Shown here piece after piece: positions 38,837 through 45,723 of a DNA stretch of 64,000 bases. Position 1 is the stretch's first letter. The number at the start of each line of letters is the position of its first letter. The notes under the pieces were generated by a model. That model saw only the letters and a program-made list of their open reading frames with translations, was not told the origin of the DNA and made no database searches. The stretch covers positions 132,293 through 196,292 of the forward strand of contig CAZDDW010000001.1 in NCBI GenBank assembly GCA_964504365.1, in the 5' to 3' direction. A program made the translations under genes and the position numbers. This stretch comes from an uncultured Gammaproteobacteria bacterium (GTDB taxonomy: Bacteria; Patescibacteriota; Patescibacteriia; UBA9934; CAZDDW01).

Positions 38837-39169
38837 ATGTTTCCTTTGCAAAATGCCAATCTTTGGAACGAGAGCTTGAAAGTGGTTTCTCAATGTCCGC
38901 TGTGCCAATCGCGTCAAAATGATATGGAGGCACGTATGCTTGGGCAGGACGGCGAGGCCCGCTTGTTGTACTTGAATTGCCACAAATGTGGAAATTCGTT
39001 ACTAGCTCTTGTTTTAGTTTCGCATGGTGGAGTAAGTTCGATCGGCATGGTCACAGATCTGACTTACGACGATGTCCGGCGGTTTCACCAGGTCGACCAA
39101 GTTTGCACAGATGATGTGCTGGATATACATCAGGCTTTACAGGATCAAGATTTCATGAAAGCAATATAA
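38837..39169 (+). CDS. small zinc-ribbon protein
   Basis: CPLC...CHKC pairs. Confidence 0.4.
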   Translation: MFPLQNANLWNESLKVVSQCPLCQSRQNDMEARMLGQDGEARLLYLNCHKCGNSLLALVLVSHGGVSSIGMVTDLTYDDVRRFHQVDQVCTDDVLDIHQALQDQDFMKAI

Positions 39170-39182
39170 TAAAAAGAAAGCG

Positions 39183-39210
39183 GACCATCCTGGCGGATGG
39201 TCCTTTTTTG
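39183..39210. terminator. bidirectional intrinsic terminator bounding the cassette array
   Basis: ggaccatcc-tggc-ggatggtcc hairpin with A-run before and T6 after. Confidence 0.65.
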
Positions 39211-39224
39211 ATCCCGAGTTACGG

Positions 39225-39770
39225 TTAGGGCAAGAGCTTGGACAGCTCGTTGATGATGCCCGCGTCGTGGTCCGGGTGAAGGGAAGGTTCTCGGTGGCAG
39301 GAGCCGTGGCAGGGGACCAGCTTGACCGAGTGTTCCTGGTGGTGCGGCGAGTTGGGGTCGGCCCAGTGGCTGAAGTCGGTGCGGATGATCAGGTGCTGGT
39401 CGCCAAGGCAATAGTCGATACCGCTGCCGGAGCGCTTGGCGTAGTAACGATCAAAGCGAGCGCCGACGATCGGCTGACCACTGTCGATTAGTTCCTGAAC
39501 TCCATCGCCGAGGGTGATCTGGCTGTGCAGGGTGCGTTTGCCGTCCTGAAGGGTCTTGCTTCGCCAGCGCTTGATCATCTTGGCCAGCTCGATCGCTTTC
39601 ATGCGCTGCTGCACCTGGCAGGAACCGTCACAGGGGCCATGCACATCTTCCAGCCCGGTTTCGCAGTTGTAGGTTACGTGAATCAGGCCATTGACGCACC
39701 AGTACTGGTCATCGATTCCATCGACCGAGTCGGCGTCATAAACCACAACGTGAAGGCGAGGGGAAGTCAT
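39225..39770 (-). CDS. array gene A: Cys/His-rich hypothetical protein
   Basis: ORF track 39225-39830; start ATG 39770 after GGAG, 33 nt downstream of repeat R1; GC-rich. Confidence 0.45.
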   Translation of the reverse strand: MTSPRLHVVVYDADSVDGIDDQYWCVNGLIHVTYNCETGLEDVHGPCDGSCQVQQRMKAIELAKMIKRWRSKTLQDGKRTLHSQITLGDGVQELIDSGQPIVGARFDRYYAKRSGSGIDYCLGDQHLIIRTDFSHWADPNSPHHQEHSVKLVPCHGSCHREPSLHPDHDAGIINELSKLLP

Positions 39771-39803
39771 AAGACATCTCCGTTGATTGTTTGAAAGTAC
39801 GTT

Positions 39804-39843
39804 CCCATCACAGAACACGATCGTGGTCATGTGCTTTGATTGG
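39804..39843. repeat. array palindromic repeat R1 (cccatcacagaacacgat-cgtg-gtcatgtgctttgattgg)
   Basis: imperfect inverted repeat; matches consensus shared by seven copies. Confidence 0.8.
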
Positions 39844-39877
39844 AGCTCGATTTGTAGGCATCGAGCAGGCCTCCTTT

Positions 39878-40177
39878 CTAGGGAAGTAGATGGTTAACAT
39901 CAATGGCATGGCAAATGACGACCTGGTCTCCCGTAACCAGTACGCCGAGTTCGCTATCCACAATTTCCTTGGCTCCGTGCTCCTTGTGTTTGCAACGAAT
40001 GGCCACGCGCACTCGATGCGTTTTTCCGGTCAGATTCAGCTGAGCGTAGACAGTACAGCCGTGTTGGCATTCTGGTTGGATTCGGTGGTCAAGGGTGTCG
40101 AGATGGTGCATGATCAGGTCATCAGCGTCTCCCGTGACCTTCCAGTTGCCATAGTTCGGATAAAAACTCTCGTACAT
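39878..40177 (-). CDS. array gene B: hypothetical protein
   Basis: ORF track 39878-40219 (its first ATG lies inside R2); likely start M15 at 40177 after GGGGA RBS. Confidence 0.4.
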   Translation of the reverse strand: MYESFYPNYGNWKVTGDADDLIMHHLDTLDHRIQPECQHGCTVYAQLNLTGKTHRVRVAIRCKHKEHGAKEIVDSELGVLVTGDQVVICHAIDVNHLLP

Positions 40178-40211
40178 TGTGTCCCCTAAGAATTTAGTGT
40201 TGAAGGATCGA

Positions 40212-40252
40212 TCCATCACAGAACACGATCATGATCATGTGCTCTGATGGGG
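40212..40252. repeat. array palindromic repeat R2
   Basis: tccatcacagaacacgat-catg-atcatgtgctctgatgggg. Confidence 0.8.
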
Positions 40253-40269
40253 TGCCCAAGAAGATTGGG

Positions 40270-40815
40270 CTAGTGAGTGGCCTGCCAAGGCCGTTGATTG
40301 CGGCCTGTGATCCGTTGCAGGACCAAGGTCAGCGAAGGTGGGGCGTGGGGAAGCAGGGCCTCCCGGATCCGGTGGCGACGCTGGTATCTGGCGTCACGGC
40401 GAAGGTGGGGGAAGAGCGGAGCTAGTTCCGGGTCGCTCAGGTTATCGAACACGTGCAGGTACAACAGGCGGAAGTTTTCCTCGGCCGAAGCCGCCTGCTT
40501 GTCGGGCATCTGCTCTCGTGCTCTGGCTGCCGTTGCCCAGAACTGGGATCGGGCTCGCTCGAAGGTTTCCTGCCAGCGCTGTCGTTCGCGTTCCTGTGCT
40601 TGTCGTATGCGCTCACGCTTCTCGGCGTTGGCCAGGGCCACGGCGTGTCGCTGCTGGTCAATGGACCAGTTCATGGCCAGTCGGTGGGCGTAGGCGGTGG
40701 GGTTGTCCGGTTGGGCCTGTTCGACCCGGCCGACCAGCTCGTCGAGCTTGTCGGGGCTGCAGGTTTGACCGTAACGGTCGATCACGTCGGAGATTACAGT
40801 ACGGATGTCAGTCAT
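40270..40815 (-). CDS. array gene C: Arg/Glu-rich coiled-coil hypothetical protein
   Basis: ORF track 40270-40851; start ATG 40815, 28 nt downstream of R3. Confidence 0.45.
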   Translation of the reverse strand: MTDIRTVISDVIDRYGQTCSPDKLDELVGRVEQAQPDNPTAYAHRLAMNWSIDQQRHAVALANAEKRERIRQAQERERQRWQETFERARSQFWATAARAREQMPDKQAASAEENFRLLYLHVFDNLSDPELAPLFPHLRRDARYQRRHRIREALLPHAPPSLTLVLQRITGRNQRPWQATH

Positions 40816-40843
40816 CTGGGGTTCCTTGCGGATAGGGACGATT

Positions 40844-40883
40844 CCCATCACAGAACACGATTTTCATCATGTGCTCTGAAGGG
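40844..40883. repeat. array palindromic repeat R3
   Basis: cccatcacagaacacgat-tttc-atcatgtgctctgaaggg. Confidence 0.8.
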
Positions 40884-41237
40884 TTGCCCGACCAGAACGG
40901 CCGGGCAAGAGGCGCAACTCACTGACAGTGGTATCAGTCAGAGGATGCTGTGACGGTGCGAAAACAACTGCTTGTCCCACCCCATGACAGATCAAGGGGC
41001 CTATTCCTGACCTGCCATGAGTATGACATGGCAACCTAACACCCAAGAGTGCCACTTCGTTAGGTGCTGGTTGACAGCTGCAAACCACCAATCGCTGGGT
41101 TTTTCAGTTCTCCTGCGTATACCAACGCACATGCCTTTAATGGATAAACCCAGAAACCAGAAGTACTACCGGGGAAACATGTAACCCCATGTTATTAGGA
41201 CACTGCCTTGATCCTTTGTTTTCTGTTTTGTGTTATT

Positions 41238-41277
41238 CCCATCACAGAACACGATTTAGATCATGGGCTATGATGGG
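41238..41277. repeat. array palindromic repeat R4 (followed by an empty slot, no convincing ORF to R3)
   Basis: cccatcacagaacacgat-ttag-atcatgggctatgatggg. Confidence 0.8.
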
Positions 41278-41585
41278 TGCCCGAGGATTCGGGCAAGAAG
41301 TATAGGAGGGGGAGACACGATGGAAACGTGTAGCTTTTGTGAGTGCTAAGGGCTAAATCTTCAGCGCTAATGGTTGAGGGCTAAGTCTTTGAATGCTGAA
41401 CCCTGAGGCCATAGCCTTCGCTGTCGATGTCAAGCTCTTAGAGCATCGGCGTAAGCCGAGCACTCCTGGCGTCCTTTCGGACGATCAGTTTGTTACTACA
41501 TATCTCGACCGTGCTCCCCCCACCAAATTGGACTGAACCGTTAGGGCTGGGGGCCCTTGGGAACAGTGTCAATCTAGTGTTTTTC

Positions 41586-42103
41586 CTAATTCGTCGGGAG
41601 GGGGGTGGTGTGGTTGGTGGACTCGAGAAGGTCGTTCAGGGCCTCGATCCGTTCTTGCAGTCGCTCGATACGCTGGACGCGCTCGGGTTCGTGCAGAGCG
41701 GCTTCGTAGGTTACCATCTCGTACTCGGTCTCGTAGGTCCGCGGGTTGGTGCCGGTCTGCTCGCGGCGATCGCCGTAGGTCAGGTTCAGACGCTGCCAGA
41801 AAGCGATCTCGCCAGCCAGCTCGCTCTTCAGGCGAACGGCCAGGGTCAGGCTGATCTGGCGGTCCTCGAACTCGATCGTCGTCGTCGCGTTGGCCTCGGC
41901 GATGCCGGCTCGCAGGCTCATCAGCTCCTCGACCAGCTCCTGGCGCTGGGCGACCAGATCGTCGAAGACGAACTCTGGTTCCAGGTCCTGGCGCCAGCTG
42001 ACGTGGGCCTCGGACGCTGGGTGATGGTACTGATGCGTCCCTCGATTCGGCTGGCGTTGCGCAAGGCCTGGGCGATGGTCAGGGTGGTCTGGGTGGCGGT
42101 CAT
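41586..42103 (-). pseudogene. array gene D: hypothetical protein interrupted by a frameshift near 41921
   Basis: two ORFs (42103-41921, 60 aa; 41921-41586, 111 aa) abut in different frames; first starts 35 nt downstream of R5 after AGGGAG RBS. Confidence 0.4.
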
Positions 42104-42138
42104 GTCAATGTCTCCCTATTGGGTGTTGAAGGTTCGTT

Positions 42139-42178
42139 CCCATCACAGAACACGATTTAGATCATGGGCTATGATGGG
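42139..42178. repeat. array palindromic repeat R5
   Basis: identical to R4 across the element. Confidence 0.8.
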
Positions 42179-42228
42179 TGGCTCTGAGCCGCAGAGCGTG
42201 CCAGCAAGGACTGCTGGACTTTGGTGGG

Positions 42229-42489
42229 CTAAAGGTGGAAGAGGGTTTTCCACTCGCCGTCACACCGTTTCTCGACGTAGTGTGAGGTCTGGACGTGACT
42301 CCCGGTCACCGGGTCCTCGTGGTAGTCGTGAGGAGGAGTGTAGAATCCCGATGTCTCGAAGCGGTCCCTGCCTGGCGTTTTGTCGAATTTTCCGCGCCAC
42401 AGCACTTGGCAAGTCCCTTCTGTACAACCGGAGCCATCTCCTTGGTAAAGGTGGTAGGTGAAAGTTCGGCGGACAATGCGGAACAACAT
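42229..42489 (-). CDS. array gene E: hypothetical protein
   Basis: ORF track 42229-42531; start ATG 42489 after GGAG, 27 nt downstream of R6. Confidence 0.4.
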   Translation of the reverse strand: MLFRIVRRTFTYHLYQGDGSGCTEGTCQVLWRGKFDKTPGRDRFETSGFYTPPHDYHEDPVTGSHVQTSHYVEKRCDGEWKTLFHL

Positions 42490-42516
42490 AGGAGACTCCG
42501 GTGGATAGGGATGATT

Positions 42517-42555
42517 CCCATCACAGAACACGATTTAGATCATGGGCTATGATGG
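42517..42555. repeat. array palindromic repeat R6
   Basis: cccatcacagaacacgat-ttag-atcatgggctatgatgga. Confidence 0.8.
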
Positions 42556-42864
42556 ACACCCGGCACGTATTGCCAGGTGGAAAGAAGTTGGGGAAGACAC
42601 GCTATCAACCCGGAATGGTGATGATCCAGGGTACCCTGGATTTACGAACGCCGACCAAGGCGCCATCACCTTACGTCACTCTGGTGCACCTCTTCCGTCG
42701 AAGAGAGTGCTTATACCCATCAGAGCATGGGGTCCCATCAGCGTGAGCTGCGGGAGAGCAAGAACTCTTTAGACGCTTCGAGTGCTTGCCGGGGTCCGTG
42801 TGTTTGGTCGATGGTGGTCACCTATCTGGCCGACACACCCACACCACCCCTGGATATTTAATGT

Positions 42865-42904
42865 CCCATCACAGAACATGATTTAGATCATGTGCTCTGA
42901 TGGG
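42865..42904. repeat. array palindromic repeat R7 (downstream slot about 310 bp without ORF; contains relic ctgatggg fragments)
   Basis: cccatcacagaacatgat-ttag-atcatgtgctctgatgggg. Confidence 0.8.
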
Positions 42905-42944
42905 GTGCCCAGATAACTGGGCAGAAGTGGAGCGGTGGGTAGGC

Positions 42945-43196
42945 CTAGGCGGCCTGTGGGAGCTCCTGGGGCGGGGTCTCGCGGCGCTCATCGGGCTGAC
43001 CCGGGCGGCGCAAGATACGGACGTAGGGCTGTGCGGGGCTGGGCTGACGCGACTCGGCACGCAGCTGTTGAGGCGAGGTGGTGAACCAGGCTCGAAGTCG
43101 GTGTACGTTTCCGTAGCAGTTGGTGTTGAAGTTGCGCATTTGCTGTCCCCTTTGTGTGTTGAACGAACATTCAGTTTTACCCTGAACGCTGATCAC
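42945..43196 (-). CDS. array-proximal low-complexity ORF (GTG start; alternative ATG 43139)
   Basis: only ORF between R7 and the control region; no repeat upstream; weak. Confidence 0.2.
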   Translation of the reverse strand: MISVQGKTECSFNTQRGQQMRNFNTNCYGNVHRLRAWFTTSPQQLRAESRQPSPAQPYVRILRRPGQPDERRETPPQELPQAA

Positions 43197-43478
43197 CTCC
43201 TGGCCTTCTCTCCAAAGGTCAGTGCTGGTGAGGTGAATCAGTCTTCAAGGTAAAATAAGTTGTAATGTCTTGATTTGCCTTGGCCAGATCGTCGCTGTGT
43301 GTTCGTAAGCTCTGCTCGAGCTTATTACCTCCTGGAATCAGATTGAACCGACTGGCGATAGATCTAGTGGTTCTTATCAAGCATGGAGCTAAGAACCGCT
43401 ACGCATTTAGGCAAAATAAAACGATGCTAGTGAGTATGTGGCTTGCTGGAGCCACAGATCGACCAGCATCGAACAAAG

Positions 43479-43507
43479 CATACTAGCATGGATTTAAAAA
43501 CTTGTCA
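43479..43507 (-). promoter_or_regulatory. promoter TTGACA-17-TAGTAT pointing into the array, followed about 15-65 nt downstream by a hairpin plus U-run (attenuator or short sRNA)
   Basis: hexamers and spacing; minus-strand hairpin gatgctggtcgatctgtggctcc...gccacatactcactagcatc then GTTTTATTTTG at about 43400-43465. Confidence 0.45.
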
Positions 43508-43612
43508 AGCCCTGGTGTACAAACCAGGTTTTTTTGTAGATTATTTCGCTAAATTTAGGTAAGTCAGATAAAAAAATAGGTCCAGGCATGCCGGACAAGG
43601 TCTTGCTTTGGG

Positions 43613-43641
43613 CTTGACAAAATAGCCGTTTTATGCTATAC
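43613..43641 (+). promoter_or_regulatory. promoter TTGACA-17-TATACT (plus), divergent from the array promoter
   Basis: perfect -35, 17-nt spacer, TATACT -10. Confidence 0.55.
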
Positions 43642-43649
43642 TTGCTTGT

Positions 43650-44133
43650 TCCTGTGAAAACCGTTGGATTTTGTTCCGGGATCTATCTCGGCTTAATCTG
43701 CTTTTTTCGACAGGCTACCGTGAGGAGGATATATGAAGATGGGTGATTGATGACCGAGTTTCAGGGTTACAGCTTCACAAGATGGGCTGCGGCTAGATTC
43801 CACAATGGAGAACCAAGGAAAACGATCCTTTTACTGCTACGGGTAGCCCCCGAGTTGACAATGGGACAAGGCTGAGGTTTCCAAGCCGATCTGCCGGAAG
43901 ACGCCGGCGATCAGATCGCGCCAGTTAAGGGCGCAAACGATGACGAACAAAGGAGGGTGCAACGTGCACTCCTAAGTCGCGATAGGCGACATCTTCGACA
44001 CCGAAACCAGCCAAGCTCCGAATGTCAACAGTCCGCCAACGAAAGGAGGCGAACATGGGTGGCTAGCCCTCTTGGACCCGGCTCGGACGCGCACTTCAGC
44101 GCGTCCGGGTCGGGACCAGATACTCAATAAGAA
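43650..44133 (+). ncRNA. candidate about 500-nt noncoding or small-ORF transcript of unknown function
   Basis: bounded by strong promoter and terminator; no ORF >=60 aa; GAGGAGG RBS with 5-codon uORF (MKMGD) overlapping the ATG of a 41-codon ORF; 19-bp-stem hairpin 44066-44109. Confidence 0.3.
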
Positions 44134-44163
44134 AACCTGCCTAATGGCAGGTCTATTTGTTTT
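44134..44163. terminator. bidirectional intrinsic terminator
   Basis: acctgcc-taat-ggcaggt hairpin with T-run after and A-run before. Confidence 0.6.
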
Positions 44164-44168
44164 CAAAA

Positions 44169-44909
44169 TTATTTGTTGTATTTATTCCAAAGCCCTTTTA
44201 GCAAAGCTCGTTGTGTGGCAGCAAAGTCCTTATTCTCAATAACAATCATGTTACCACCCTTTTCAAAACTGACCATAACCACTGTGTCGTCGTATACAGC
44301 AACGTCACCTTTGAATTCGCCAATGTCTTTTTTATCGACCTTGCAATAACTGACCATCTCTCGATTCCTTATTTTATCGCCTGAATGCATGAAGTATACT
44401 CTAACATTCTTTAGTTCCATTCCTTGTCTGGCTTGGTCAACTGTTTCTTTTGTAAAGTGTTTATAGAGTTCATCAACATTTGACAGCTCGTACATTTCCT
44501 TAGGTTTTTTTTTACATACATCATCAAAGAAAGCATAAAACATTTCTGTGCCTTGGAAAAAGCGGACCTTTGGCCGTTCGCCACCCGCCAGTAGTATCAG
44601 GTCATCTAGCTTTTTTTCAATTAAAGATACTTTATTTGAGAATTCAAGTTGCTGTCCTTGCAAGTGTTGAAGAAGTCGATCCGGCTCTTCAGCAACATAG
44701 AGTGTTTTTTTACCACGTTGGTAAGTAGAAAAAAGCTCTTTGCTTTTTAGGTTTTCGATTGCATCATAAGCTGCGGTCCGTGATAACTTGGCTGCTTTGG
44801 CAATGTCTTGAACACTGGCTGCGCCGAGCTTGAGTCCGGCTAGATAAGTTTTGGCTTCAGACTCGGTCATGCCGAGCGCGTGAAGGATTGAAGTAAAGTC
44901 AGTTGGCAT
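44169..44909 (-). CDS. TrmB-family transcriptional regulator
   Basis: N-terminal winged HTH LGMTESEAKTYLAGLKLGAASVQDIAKAAKLSRTAAYDAIENL typical of TrmB; low GC. Confidence 0.6.
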   Translation of the reverse strand: MPTDFTSILHALGMTESEAKTYLAGLKLGAASVQDIAKAAKLSRTAAYDAIENLKSKELFSTYQRGKKTLYVAEEPDRLLQHLQGQQLEFSNKVSLIEKKLDDLILLAGGERPKVRFFQGTEMFYAFFDDVCKKKPKEMYELSNVDELYKHFTKETVDQARQGMELKNVRVYFMHSGDKIRNREMVSYCKVDKKDIGEFKGDVAVYDDTVVMVSFEKGGNMIVIENKDFAATQRALLKGLWNKYNK

Positions 44910-44997
44910 ATATTATTATTTCGATACTTATTTTACCTCATTCTTGACAATTCTGCCATATTCAGGCAAACTACGCCTCGTTAATAAGATTATATTT

Positions 44998-45723
44998 ATG
45001 GATACCATTACATTAAACGCTGAGCCACGTGAGGCTAAGGGTCGAGATACAAATGCTCTACGAGCAGATTCGATTGTGCCTGCTGTGGTTTACGGACCAA
45101 ACTCAGAATCAAGAAGTGTTCAGGTTATTCGAAATGAAGTAATTGCTGCTTTTCGACAGGCTGGACGTAGTTCTTTGGTTGATCTGGTGATTGGAGGAGA
45201 CAAGCCAGTTAAGGTGATTATTCAGGACGTACAACGCGATCCATTGAAAGATGACCTTACTCATATTGATTTTTATGAGGTTGATCTGACCAAGGAAGTT
45301 TCGGCTACTGTAAAGCTCGAGTTCATTGGTACTTCTGCTGCAGTTAAGGAACTGGGTGGAACTTTGGTCAAGGCTCGTGATAGAATAGAAGTGAAAGGTT
45401 TGCCAGACAGGCTGGTTGCTTCTCTCGAGGTTGATATTTCAAAACTAAATACCTTTGACGATGTCTTCCATGTTAAAGATATTGTTTTACCAGAAGGATT
45501 GAGTTTGGATATGGATGAGGAACGCGCGGTTGCCTTAGTTAACCCACCACGAACTCAGGAAGAAATGGAGAAACTGGATGAAGCAATTGAAGAAGAGGTC
45601 ACTGGCGCTGACGAAGATGAAGAGGGTGAAGCCAAGGAAGGTGAGGAAGGCGAGGCTCCTGCTGATGGTGAAGCCAAGGAAGAGGGTGACAAGCCTGCAG
45701 ACGGAGAGTCAAAGGACAAATAA
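44998..45723 (+). CDS. rplY: 50S ribosomal protein L25/general stress protein Ctc with acidic C-terminal tail
   Basis: L25 beta-barrel then CTC domain; start taken at M19 (MDTITLN). Confidence 0.7.
   Translation: MDTITLNAEPREAKGRDTNALRADSIVPAVVYGPNSESRSVQVIRNEVIAAFRQAGRSSLVDLVIGGDKPVKVIIQDVQRDPLKDDLTHIDFYEVDLTKEVSATVKLEFIGTSAAVKELGGTLVKARDRIEVKGLPDRLVASLEVDISKLNTFDDVFHVKDIVLPEGLSLDMDEERAVALVNPPRTQEEMEKLDEAIEEEVTGADEDEEGEAKEGEEGEAPADGEAKEEGDKPADGESKDK

What the first reader, a model, noticed from the sequence alone, without database searches (positions are those of the whole stretch)
43611..44163. About 500-nt promoter-to-terminator unit with no long ORF: candidate ncRNA or tiny-ORF locus
A strong promoter (43613-43641) and a bidirectional terminator (44134-44163) bracket about 490 nt in which no ORF of 60 aa or more exists on either strand. 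The unit contains a GAGGAGG RBS followed by a 5-codon uORF (MKMGD) whose stop overlaps the ATG of a 41-codon ORF (MTEFQGYSFTRWAAARFHNGEPRKTILLLLRVAPELTMGQG). It also contains a 19-bp-stem hairpin (44066-44109) and several GC-rich helices. I could not match it to RNase P, tmRNA, SRP, 6S or a cobalamin riboswitch by eye. One tag-like string GCAAACGATGACGAA (ANDDE) is present but has no tmRNA-like termini.
Basis: seen in the sequence. Interest (0 to 1): 0.55.

Follow-up and report, generated by a model that had tools for sequence, protein, structure and literature searches.

The report
Conserved twin mini-ORF RNA beside TrmB-like regulator
A roughly 515-nt promoter-to-terminator transcript in a Candidate Phyla Radiation bacterium encodes no real protein but carries two (perhaps three) reading frames of 3-5 codons with the strongest ribosome-binding sites in the window; the same unit sits next to a TrmB-like regulator gene in about 40-50 of 138 related loci, so it is an undescribed, probably ribosome-engaging regulatory RNA.

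Summary
The unit is real. It has a near-consensus promoter (43614-43642), about 515 nt with no conserved long ORF, and a bidirectional terminator (44135-44163). It matches no Rfam family and is not a tmRNA.

Relatives show which parts matter. The 41-codon ORF and the middle of the RNA are not conserved.

In 138 non-redundant loci from Patescibacteria, such mini-ORFs are 28 times enriched just beyond a TrmB/TrmBL2-like gene. Their stops are in frame, all three stop codons are used, and they are Gly-rich with synonymous variation. The reading frame is therefore what is under selection.

The unit always neighbours a second conserved promoter (P2), with an AT-rich palindrome nearby. In the window P2 drives a GC-rich array of small ORFs separated by hairpin repeats.

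Best reading: a stand-alone twin-minigene RNA, probably controlled by the TrmB-like protein, whose function is exerted through ribosome loading. The output is not known.

The parts
43614..43642 (+). Promoter of the unit (TTGACA, 17 nt, TG-n-TATACT). Inferred start of the RNA is near 43649.
   Evidence: 11 of 12 matches. Both hexamers are identical in L011. TTGACA with a 17-nt spacer recurs in about 30 loci.
43722..43750 (+). SD1 (GAGGAGG, 43722-43728) and mini-ORF1 (43733-43750, MKMGD-stop; the inner ATG at 43739 would give MGD-stop).
   Evidence: Counterparts in relatives: MGH (L011), MCG (L013), MGGG, MGNG and others. SD duplex energy -12.2 kcal/mol, against a median of -4.85 for 42 long ORFs.
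43950..43975 (+). Possible third ribosome site: AAGGAGG (43950-43956) plus GTG CAC TCC TAA (43964-43975). The SD can pair with CUCCU in a small hairpin.
   Evidence: -13.1 kcal/mol. Not shown to be conserved; L011 has an SD plus a longer ORF here.
44042..44066 (+). SD2 (AAAGGAGG, 44042-44049) and mini-ORF2 (ATG GGT GGC TAG, 44055-44066, MGG-stop).
   Evidence: 84% identical to L011, while the middle of the RNA is 36%. ATGGGTGGCTAG is also found in L018 and L100. MGG is written ATGGGCGGTTGA in L096 and ATGGGCGGATAA in L095. SD duplex energy -17.3 kcal/mol, stronger than for any of 42 long ORFs.
44073..44118 (+). Long GC-rich hairpin starting 6 nt after the stop of mini-ORF2.
   Evidence: -40.3 kcal/mol, z -7.8. 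A hairpin of -34 to -44 kcal/mol occupies the same place in L011, L013, L018, L100, L096 and L095, with different sequences.
44135..44163 (.). Bidirectional intrinsic terminator shared with the convergent TrmB-like gene.
   Evidence: 79% identical to L011.
44169..44909 (-). TrmB/TrmBL2-like winged-helix regulator gene, convergent with the unit.
   Evidence: Pfam PF01978, E 2.5e-12. AlphaFold2 model with pLDDT 85. Best PDB matches are TrmBL2 5bpd (E 4e-13) and TrmB 3qph. Linked to the unit in three different arrangements.
43549..43558 (.). AT-rich palindrome CTAAATTTAG between the unit promoter and the divergent P2 promoter; candidate operator.
   Evidence: I2. It is ACCTAAATTTAGGT in L011, and there are TAGCTAAATTTAGCTA-like palindromes in other loci. 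Binding was not tested.
43480..43508 (-). Divergent promoter P2 (TTGACA-17-TAGTAT with TG).
   Evidence: 10 of 12 matches. TTGACA-17-TGATAGT-type promoters and similar 5' ends of the transcript (UUCGnUG...) in 16 loci.
39203..43473 (-). Context: the P2 transcript. It is a GC-rich block with 7 hairpin repeats, each followed by a small ORF, and ends at the terminator at 39182-39203.
   Evidence: Remote homologues of four of its ORFs lie in the P2 blocks of L013, L097, L099 and L100.

Best explanation
The unit is a stand-alone small transcript of about 515 nt (about 43649-44160, + strand). It belongs to a previously undescribed family from Candidate Phyla Radiation (Patescibacteria) bacteria, which I call a 'twin-minigene RNA'.

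Shown:
- It has its own near-consensus promoter and terminator.
- Its only conserved internal elements are two near-maximal Shine-Dalgarno sites, each followed by an ATG and a 3-5-codon ORF.
- These ORFs are rich in Gly and often end in Gly. In one clade they end in Trp.
- The second ORF lies just before a long hairpin or terminator.
- The unit is physically linked to a TrmB/TrmBL2-like regulator gene and to a second promoter, P2. An AT-rich palindrome lies between or beside the two promoters.

Inferred mechanism:
- The TrmB-like dimer binds the palindrome and co-regulates the unit and P2.
- The RNA works by being loaded with ribosomes. A ribosome on mini-ORF1 shields the 5' part of the RNA.
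- A ribosome that initiates and then terminates on mini-ORF2 is still tethered by the strong SD and carries a C-terminal Gly. It covers the foot of the adjacent hairpin or terminator.
- The fate of the RNA (3' end formation, processing or half-life) therefore reports how many active ribosomes, Gly-tRNA or release factors are available.
- What the RNA then acts on is unknown. The neighbouring P2 transcript is the obvious candidate.
For: Independent unit:
- Promoter and terminator. Both are conserved in L011 at 79% identity, whereas the 5' leader and the middle are 36-39% identical.
- A TTGACA-17-TAnnnT promoter precedes the mini-ORFs in about 30-50 loci.

The mini-ORFs are the conserved feature:
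- GGAGG plus 3-9 nt plus ATG plus a 2-7-codon ORF occurs 48 times in 95 kb of the 700 nt beyond the TrmB-like gene (41 of 138 loci). The rest of the loci have 37 in 2.06 Mb. That is 0.50 against 0.018 per kb.
- 61% of GGAGG-ATG sites in this zone are mini-ORFs, against 11% elsewhere.

The reading frame is selected, not a fixed sequence:
- The first stop triplet after the ATG is in frame in 45 cases, against 11 and 7 in the other two frames.
- Stops are TAG 18, TGA 16, TAA 14.
- Gly makes up 75 of 140 non-Met residues, using GGC, GGT and GGA.
- MGG is written with three different nucleotide strings.
- One clade has Trp as the last codon in both ORFs.

SD strength: -17.3, -13.1 and -12.2 kcal/mol, against a median of -4.85 and a best of -13.6 for 42 long ORFs.

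Hairpin after mini-ORF2: present in seven loci with different sequences, z -2 to -8.

Linkage to the TrmB-like gene:
- It holds in three orientations: 40 convergent, 11 downstream co-directional, 4 upstream.
- It holds in different genomic neighbourhoods (L25 in the window, IleRS in L013).

Not a known RNA.

Precedents for short translated ORFs that act through ribosome position:
- Sensory uORFs (PMC12121999, PMC9226507).
- A two-codon minigene that stabilises an mRNA in cis (PMC8708949).
- Ribosomes at a strong SD blocking RNase J1 (PMC5737220).
Against: - No expression or ribosome-profiling data, so transcription and translation are inferred from sequence only.
- The census was anchored on the TrmB-like gene. 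Units that occur elsewhere in genomes would not have been seen.
- Only 41-52 of 138 loci scored positive.
- A crude family-wide test did not show a stable hairpin within 20 nt of the stop more often than at random positions (21 of 42 against 156 of 400).
- RNAalifold on the sequence alignment recovered only 8 pairs of the hairpin.
- No alternative antiterminator structure was demonstrated.
- In the window there is no downstream gene on the same strand to regulate, so the output of the proposed sensing is undefined.
- The anti-SD sequence used for the energies is generic, not taken from this genome.
Confidence: 0.4

Rival explanations
1. Classical cis-acting leader-peptide attenuator. Ribosome stalling or release on mini-ORF2 decides whether the terminator forms. 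Read-through then regulates the next gene: antisense transcription into the TrmB-like gene in the window, or sense transcription into P2 or the TrmB-like gene in the other arrangements.
For: - In L015, L016, L017, L099, L101, L103, L104 and L106, mini-ORF2 is followed within 5-17 nt by a hairpin plus U run.
- The architecture resembles short-uORF attenuators (PMC9226507, PMC12121999).
- In four loci the unit lies upstream of the TrmB-like gene on the same strand.
Against: - The element lying beyond the terminator differs among the three arrangements, so there is no single regulated gene.
- In the window clade a long hairpin without a U run and 15-80 further nt separate mini-ORF2 from the terminator.
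- No antiterminator alternative was found.
- This model does not explain why there are two mini-ORFs.
Confidence: 0.17
2. A base-pairing or protein-binding small RNA whose function lies elsewhere. The strong SDs and mini-ORFs only recruit ribosomes as stabilisers against 5' exonuclease or Rho.
For: - Ribosomes at strong SDs stabilise RNAs in Firmicutes (PMC5737220).
- A minigene can stabilise an mRNA in cis (PMC8708949).
- The window's P2 leader also carries two SD-like motifs without start codons (CCAGGAGGTAATAAGC and CCAGGAGGTGATCAGC on the - strand, 43335-43320 and 43203-43188).
- The whole RNA folds better than shuffles.
Against: - Outside the promoter, mini-ORFs and terminator, the RNA is about 36-39% identical between the two closest relatives, so there is no conserved seed.
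- No complementarity to the TrmB-like start region above controls.
- Complementarity to the P2 leader was found in L013 only.
- A pure stabiliser would not need conserved Gly or Trp codons and in-frame stops.
Confidence: 0.15
3. The products matter. The 3-6-residue peptides (fMet-Gly-Gly and the like) are ligands or signals read by the C-terminal domain of the adjacent TrmB-like protein, as in peptide-receptor cassettes.
For: - Tight linkage of tiny ORFs and a regulator, independent of orientation.
- Amino-acid identity is conserved through synonymous changes, and C-terminal residues are clade-specific (Gly against Trp).
- The regulator has a TrmB-type C-terminal domain, which binds small ligands in TrmB.
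Against: - No precedent for directly translated 3-residue ligands.
- The two ORFs of one RNA often encode different peptides (MKMGD and MGG in the window).
- The closest structural match, TrmBL2, is described in its PDB entry as a chromatin protein.
- No export signal.
- Nothing here tests binding.
Confidence: 0.1
4. A bar-like toxic minigene or ribosome sponge. When derepressed, the abundant RNA ties up ribosomes and Gly-tRNA (through peptidyl-tRNA drop-off) and slows growth. This would have a large effect in ultra-small cells with few ribosomes.
For: - SDs stronger than those of any long ORF in the window.
- Near-consensus promoter.
- ORFs of 3-5 codons, as in minigenes (PMC8708949; lambda bar, from my own knowledge).
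Against: - A sponge would not need defined codons.
- There is no evidence of toxicity.
- Wide vertical conservation next to housekeeping genes argues for a routine rather than an emergency role.
Confidence: 0.08
5. Not functional as such: a decayed gene, or the remnant of a leader, that happens to lie between a promoter and a terminator.
For: - The window's GC-rich neighbourhood contains decaying genes, including a frameshifted DUF6847-like ORF at 41586-42103.
- The middle of the unit is unconserved.
Against: - The same promoter, mini-ORF, mini-ORF, terminator architecture is found in dozens of distant lineages.
- 28-fold enrichment and frame bias.
- The long ORFs are not conserved in any frame.
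Confidence: 0.03

Closest known systems
Ribosome-dependent attenuators and sensory uORFs (for example toiL of E. coli topAI, PMC12121999; the vmlR leader of B. subtilis, PMC9226507)
   Same: A short ORF with its own SD whose translation state, not its peptide as a protein, changes the folding of adjacent RNA. It is often placed next to a terminator.
   Different: Those are 5' leaders of a defined downstream gene. Here the unit is a stand-alone transcript with two such ORFs. Nothing lies downstream on its strand in the window. Its genomic partner is a regulator gene found in three different orientations.
Minigenes: lambda bar (own knowledge) and the two-codon mg2 of axe-txe (PMC8708949)
   Same: An SD plus an ORF of 2-3 codons, with effects exerted through ribosome occupancy or peptidyl-tRNA.
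   Different: Those are single minigenes inside phage or toxin-antitoxin transcripts. They are not a conserved pair in a dedicated RNA, and no Gly- or Trp-specific codon conservation has been reported for them.
Ribosome-binding stabilisers (strong SD of B. subtilis hbs, PMC5737220; STAB-SD of cryIIIA, own knowledge)
   Same: Very strong SD near the 5' end of an RNA. A bound ribosome blocks 5'-to-3' decay.
   Different: STAB-SD needs no start codon or ORF. Here ATG, frame and stop are all conserved.
Dual-function small RNAs (review PMC12310071)
   Same: A promoter-to-terminator small transcript that is also translated.
   Different: Their products are small proteins of about 20-50 aa, and the RNA has a conserved base-pairing region. 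Here the ORFs are 3-6 codons and no seed is conserved.
TrmB / TrmBL2 regulators of Thermococcales (PDB 3qph, 5bpd)
   Same: The neighbouring protein has the winged helix, long coiled-coil helix and C-terminal alpha/beta domain of this family.
   Different: It is a bacterial (CPR) member. Sugar binding and the TGM operator (from my own knowledge) were not examined. The candidate operator here is an AT-rich palindrome, TAGCTAAATTTAGCTA-like.

Membership tests
tmRNA | tRNA-like acceptor and T-arm termini, plus an internal tag ORF that starts without SD or ATG and ends in a hydrophobic tag | tested here: not met
   ARAGORN finds no tmRNA in the window. No Rfam tmRNA match even at E<=10. The ORFs here have an SD and an ATG.
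Any Rfam 15 family (RNase P, SRP, 6S, riboswitches, T-box, leaders, ribozymes) | Covariance-model score at or above the family's gathering score | tested here: not met
   0 matches in the window. Only chance-level matches at E 1.6-10 in 39000-45000. Only tRNAs in 14 related loci.
Ribosome-dependent transcription attenuator | Short leader ORF with its own ribosome-binding site | tested here: met
Ribosome-dependent transcription attenuator | Intrinsic terminator directly after the leader ORF, with a mutually exclusive antiterminator | tested here: inconclusive
   A terminator follows within 5-17 nt in eight loci. In the window a non-terminator hairpin comes first. No antiterminator pairing was identified.
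Ribosome-dependent transcription attenuator | A regulated gene downstream on the same strand | tested here: not met
   In the window the terminator abuts the 3' end of the convergent TrmB-like gene. The downstream element differs among arrangements.
bar-type minigene | SD plus an ORF of 2-3 sense codons | tested here: met
   MGG at 44055-44066; 3- and 4-codon ORFs are the most frequent classes.
bar-type minigene | Toxicity through peptidyl-tRNA drop-off when peptidyl-tRNA hydrolase is limiting | not testable with these tools
   Needs genetics.
Small-protein gene (the 41-aa or 57-aa ORF) | ORF preserved in frame in relatives | tested here: not met
   The aligned L011 stretch of the 41-codon ORF has stops in all three frames. 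In L011 the only frame without an internal stop across the 57-codon stretch differs from the window's frame.
TrmB family (for the neighbouring gene) | N-terminal TrmB winged helix-turn-helix and the TrmB/TrmBL2 overall fold | tested here: met
   PF01978, E 2.5e-12. Foldseek match to 5bpd at E 4e-13 and 3qph at E 2e-9.
Integron (for the neighbouring array) | IntI tyrosine recombinase next to the array, and attC sites with RYYYAAC/GTTRRRY cores | tested here: not met
   No recombinase domain in the ten flanking or array ORFs. The repeat has no GTTRRRY core (read). The repeat is a 2-hairpin element best paired as sense-strand RNA.
CRISPR array (for the neighbouring repeats) | Repeats of 23-50 nt separated by spacers of similar length | tested here: not met
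   Repeat spacing is 348-901 nt, with ORFs in between.

The most novel reading that the evidence does not exclude
The unit, the TrmB-like protein and the P2 transcript may form a new kind of circuit in ultra-small CPR cells. In it a dedicated RNA is translated into 3-5-residue peptides. Either the peptides themselves or the ribosome traffic on the RNA is the signal that the adjacent TrmB-like regulator, or the P2 RNA, reads. P2 carries its own conserved structured domain in other lineages. The circuit would be a built-in gauge of translational capacity that controls a block of fast-evolving small genes.
Probability: 0.12. Interest if true: 0.9.

Novelty: new variant of a known kind. Interest (0 to 1): 0.7.

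Why it matters
CPR/Patescibacteria make up a large share of bacterial diversity, are mostly uncultured, and have almost no described regulatory RNAs.

This unit is conserved across several CPR classes. It carries a near-consensus promoter and the strongest ribosome-binding sites in the window. Yet it encodes only peptides such as Met-Gly-Gly. That makes it a candidate for a regulatory device that works through ribosome loading itself, in cells thought to hold only tens of ribosomes.

It comes with a defined partner (a TrmBL2-like DNA-binding protein), a candidate operator and a co-located second transcript. The hypothesis is therefore directly testable with reporters, toeprinting and DNA-binding assays.

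It also gives annotators a recognisable signature for a stretch that gene callers now fill with spurious 40-117-aa 'genes'.

Tried and rejected
1. Exact-pattern scans for the neighbouring repeat in genome, metagenome and viral collections found nothing.
2. Contigs carrying the identical TrmB-like protein (L001-L010) are the same strain at 99.7% identity or more. They were useless for covariation.
3. nhmmer with the unit sequences found only L011/L012 and L018. The family had to be traced by synteny and motif instead.
4. The 'anti-repeat' idea was that ATGGGTG of mini-ORF2 pairs with CACCCAT of the array repeats, in tracrRNA fashion. The L011 repeats read CACCCCTT and do not co-vary. A 24-nt copy search found a second copy only in L013. 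Rejected.
5. The unit shows no pairing with the TrmB-like start region above shuffled controls (z +0.1 to -1.2).
6. Hairpin-after-stop as a family-wide statistic was not better than random positions.
7. RNAalifold on the MAFFT alignment of the 3' module gave only 8 pairs. Single-sequence folds show the hairpin in each locus.
8. tmRNA, T-box (GGGUGG resemblance), RNase P and cobalamin riboswitch: no support.
9. Pseudogene or small-protein readings of the 41-, 57- and 64-aa ORFs: not conserved.
10. Phage or defence origin: the TrmB-like gene is absent from IMG/VR. There were no PADLOC hits and only weak PHROG hits for the array ORFs.
11. Integron or CRISPR reading of the array: defining features not met.
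Full report
**Observation.** On the + strand, 43614-43642 holds TTGACA, 17 nt, then TG-n-TATACT (11 of 12 matches). It was the best of 12 promoter-like sites in 7 kb, where 5.8 are expected by chance. A hairpin at 44135-44152 with a T run scores as a terminator on both strands.

Between them lie GAGGAGG (43722-43728) and ATG AAG ATG GGT GAT TGA (43733-43750). The stop overlaps the ATG of a 41-codon ORF. Three details needed correction:
- A 64-aa TTG-start ORF exists on the - strand at 43972-44166.
- The long hairpin is at 44073-44118.

**Not a known RNA.** Rfam 15 gives no match at gathering score anywhere in the 64-kb window. In 39000-45000 there are only chance-level matches at E of 1.6 or more. 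ARAGORN finds no tRNA or tmRNA.

**Surroundings.**
- The unit is convergent with a 246-aa gene (44169-44909, - strand) that carries a TrmB winged helix (PF01978, E 2.5e-12).
- Its AlphaFold2 model (pLDDT 85) matches TrmBL2 (5bpd, E 4e-13) and TrmB (3qph) over the full length.
- Upstream of the unit, a divergent promoter P2 (43508-43480, TTGACA-17-TAGTAT) points into a GC-rich block (55-66% against about 43%). The block ends at a bidirectional terminator at 39182-39203.
- The block contains seven copies of a hairpin repeat. Each is preceded by a variable GC hairpin and followed about 35 nt later by the SD and ATG of a small ORF.
- Between the two promoters lies the palindrome CTAAATTTAG (43549-43558).

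**Finding relatives.**
- Exact scans for the repeat found nothing.
- Contigs encoding the identical TrmB-like protein are the same strain.
- Homologues of that protein (one is named Candidatus Uhrbacteria) gave two informative loci. L011 has 66% protein identity and the same synteny. L013 has 37% identity and a different upstream gene, IleRS.
- An alignment of the homologues then retrieved 160 further loci. Nearly all are from Patescibacteria MAGs.

**What is conserved.** I compared the window with L011 segment by segment.

| Segment | Identity to L011 |
|---|---|
| Promoter | 79% |
| SD2 plus mini-ORF2 | 84% |
| Terminator | 79% |
| 5' leader | 39% |
| Middle of the RNA | 36% |

- The 41-codon ORF has stops in all three frames in L011. 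The 57-codon ORF is not kept in frame there.
- L013 has no detectable sequence similarity but the same layout. In order, it has a TTGACA-17 promoter, an SD plus ATG TGC GGC TAA, about 380 nt to the second site, an SD plus ATG CAC GGT TAA, a long GC hairpin and a terminator.
- Printing the region beyond the TrmB-like gene in other loci shows the same architecture again and again.

**Statistics.** I used 138 non-redundant loci.
- GGAGG plus 3-9 nt plus ATG followed by a 2-7-codon ORF occurs 48 times in the 95 kb just beyond the TrmB-like gene on the convergent strand (41 loci). The remaining 2.06 Mb has 37. That is 0.50 against 0.018 per kb, a 28-fold enrichment.
- The first stop triplet after the ATG is in frame 45 times, against 11 and 7 in the other two frames.
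- The three stop codons are used about equally (18, 16 and 14).
- Gly makes up 75 of 140 non-Met residues and uses GGC, GGT and GGA.
- MGG is encoded by ATGGGTGGCTAG, ATGGGCGGTTGA and ATGGGCGGATAA in different loci.
- In one clade both ORFs end in Trp: MGGW, MGW, MGGGW, MTSW, MDCW, MEAW.

These patterns point to selection on a translated frame and on the identity of the decoded codons. They do not fit a fixed RNA sequence motif.

With a generic anti-SD, the three SDs of the window unit pair at -17.3, -13.1 and -12.2 kcal/mol. For 42 long ORFs of the window the median is -4.85 and the best is -13.6.

**Structure.**
- The whole unit folds better than shuffles on both strands (z -5.2 and -4.6). 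That alone is weak evidence.
- The hairpin after mini-ORF2 is robust. It scores -34 to -44 kcal/mol with z -2.0 to -8.0 in seven loci, and the sequences differ. Its foot starts only a few nt after the stop (about 3-11 nt in the folds).
- In another clade the hairpin in that position is the terminator itself.
- A crude family-wide test did not separate mini-ORF flanks from random positions.
- RNAalifold on the sequence alignment recovered only 8 pairs.
- I therefore claim the hairpin only for the window clade and the L013 clade.

**Linkage.**
- With a relaxed SD and a required TTGACA promoter, 52 of 138 loci have the unit next to the TrmB-like gene. It is convergent in 40, downstream and co-directional in 11 (a few of these are P2 promoters with incidental ORFs), and upstream and co-directional in 4.
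- In every locus where I located both, the unit is also next to a second promoter of the TTGACA-17-TGATAGT type. The transcripts from that promoter start alike.
- AT-rich palindromes of the TAGCTAAATTTAGCTA type lie close by.
- Linkage that survives inversion argues for a functional module, not for regulation by read-through into one particular neighbour.
- The TrmB-like gene is absent from IMG/VR.

**Mechanism.** The shown facts are these: an independent conserved unit; two very strong ribosome sites with conserved, translated 3-5-codon ORFs; a hairpin or terminator right after the second; and linkage to a TrmBL2-like gene, to P2 and to a palindrome.

My inferred mechanism is as follows.
- The TrmB-like dimer controls both promoters through the palindrome.
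- The RNA acts through ribosome loading.
- Ribosome occupancy near the 5' end and at the foot of the 3' hairpin or terminator sets the RNA's 3' end, processing or half-life. The RNA thus reads out translational capacity (ribosomes, Gly-tRNA, release factor).

Precedents exist for each step:
- Sensory uORFs (PMC12121999, PMC9226507).
- A two-codon minigene that acts in cis, possibly by protecting the mRNA (PMC8708949).
- Ribosomes at a strong SD blocking RNase J1 (PMC5737220).

That C-terminal Gly slows peptide release is my recollection of the literature. I did not test it here. I give this reading 0.4. The rivals are:
- A plain cis attenuator.
- A stabilised base-pairing sRNA.
- Peptides as ligands of the regulator.
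- A bar-like ribosome and tRNA trap.
- A functionless remnant.

**Context worth its own study.**
- The array hairpin is 92.7% paired over 12 copies (window plus L011), against 49% or less for slid controls.
- It has three pairs with compensatory changes. One position is mostly U-G, so it fits sense-strand RNA.
- In L104 the equivalent repeat pairs CUCCCC with the GGGGAGG SD of the next ORF.
- Four window ORFs have remote homologues in the P2 blocks of L013, L097, L099 and L100. One is DUF6847-like and frameshifted in the window.
- One array ORF that I searched has a single other homologue among 5.8 billion proteins.
- In six other loci the P2 transcript carries a 260-nt domain with 47 predicted pairs, 27 of them with compensatory changes. 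It has no Rfam match at E<=1 and is not detectable in the window.

**Verdict.** The finding is real. The kind of element (a short translated ORF acting through the ribosome) is known. This stand-alone, paired, regulator-linked form is not. The function remains inferred.

Noticed in passing
window 39203-43473 (- strand); repeats start at 39805, 40213, 40845, 41239, 42140, 42518, 42866 (+ strand coordinates): A GC-rich block (55-66% against about 43%) with seven copies of an 18-bp hairpin repeat. Each copy is preceded by a variable GC hairpin and followed by a small ORF. It looks like a cassette array but has no integrase, no attC core and no CRISPR spacing. The hairpin fits sense-strand RNA (U-G pairs), so it may be a processing site or a translational operator.
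   Followed up: partly
L011 12192-12440, L103 7736-8000, L013 12290-12535, L104 5344-5597, L015 7761-8026, L029 6894-7126: A roughly 260-nt structured domain in the P2 transcript of six loci. RNAalifold predicts 47 pairs, 27 with compensatory changes. There is no Rfam match. It is not detectable in the window. It is a candidate new structured RNA upstream of the small-ORF blocks.
   Followed up: partly
window 41586-42103 (- strand): A DUF6847-like gene appears split by a frameshift into 60-aa and 111-aa ORFs. It has intact-looking homologues in L097 and L099. It is either a pseudogene or a sequencing or assembly error.
   Followed up: partly
window 43188-43203 and 43320-43335: On the - strand the P2 leader has two copies of CCAGGAGGT(G/A)AT(C/A)AGC. 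These are near-perfect complements of a 16S 3' tail, but no start codon lies at initiation distance. They resemble STAB-SD-type ribosome-binding stabilisers.
   Followed up: no
L013 11078-11143 and 18775-18840: A 66-nt direct repeat (85% identical) of the unit's terminator hairpin flanks the unit plus the whole P2 block (7.7 kb). This is what the ends of an inserted element would look like. No such repeat flanks the block in the window.
   Followed up: no
L104 6776-6821 and 7312-7357: The hairpin repeat CTCCCCAGTGCCGACGAG...GTGGGGAGGTTCAAATG pairs the SD of the following ORF with CUCCCC. Each ORF of that array is therefore predicted to be translationally masked.
   Followed up: no
L095 about 7550-6760 (- strand): Two units appear to lie in tandem. 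Two mini-ORFs with clear SDs (both MNG) are separated by a terminator, and a third (MGG) follows with a weaker SD.
   Followed up: no
window 44910-44943 and the TrmB-like starts of L011, L013, L018, L099, L100: The TrmB-like genes have no recognisable SD upstream of their ATG. This contrasts with the maximal SDs of the adjacent mini-ORFs.
   Followed up: no
window 1-64000: No tRNA gene in the whole 64-kb window (Rfam and ARAGORN).
   Followed up: no
L001-L005 gene calls (same strain as the window): Public gene callers place differing 43-316-aa 'genes' on both strands across the unit and the GC-rich block. These are probably spurious calls in non-coding or small-ORF sequence.
   Followed up: no
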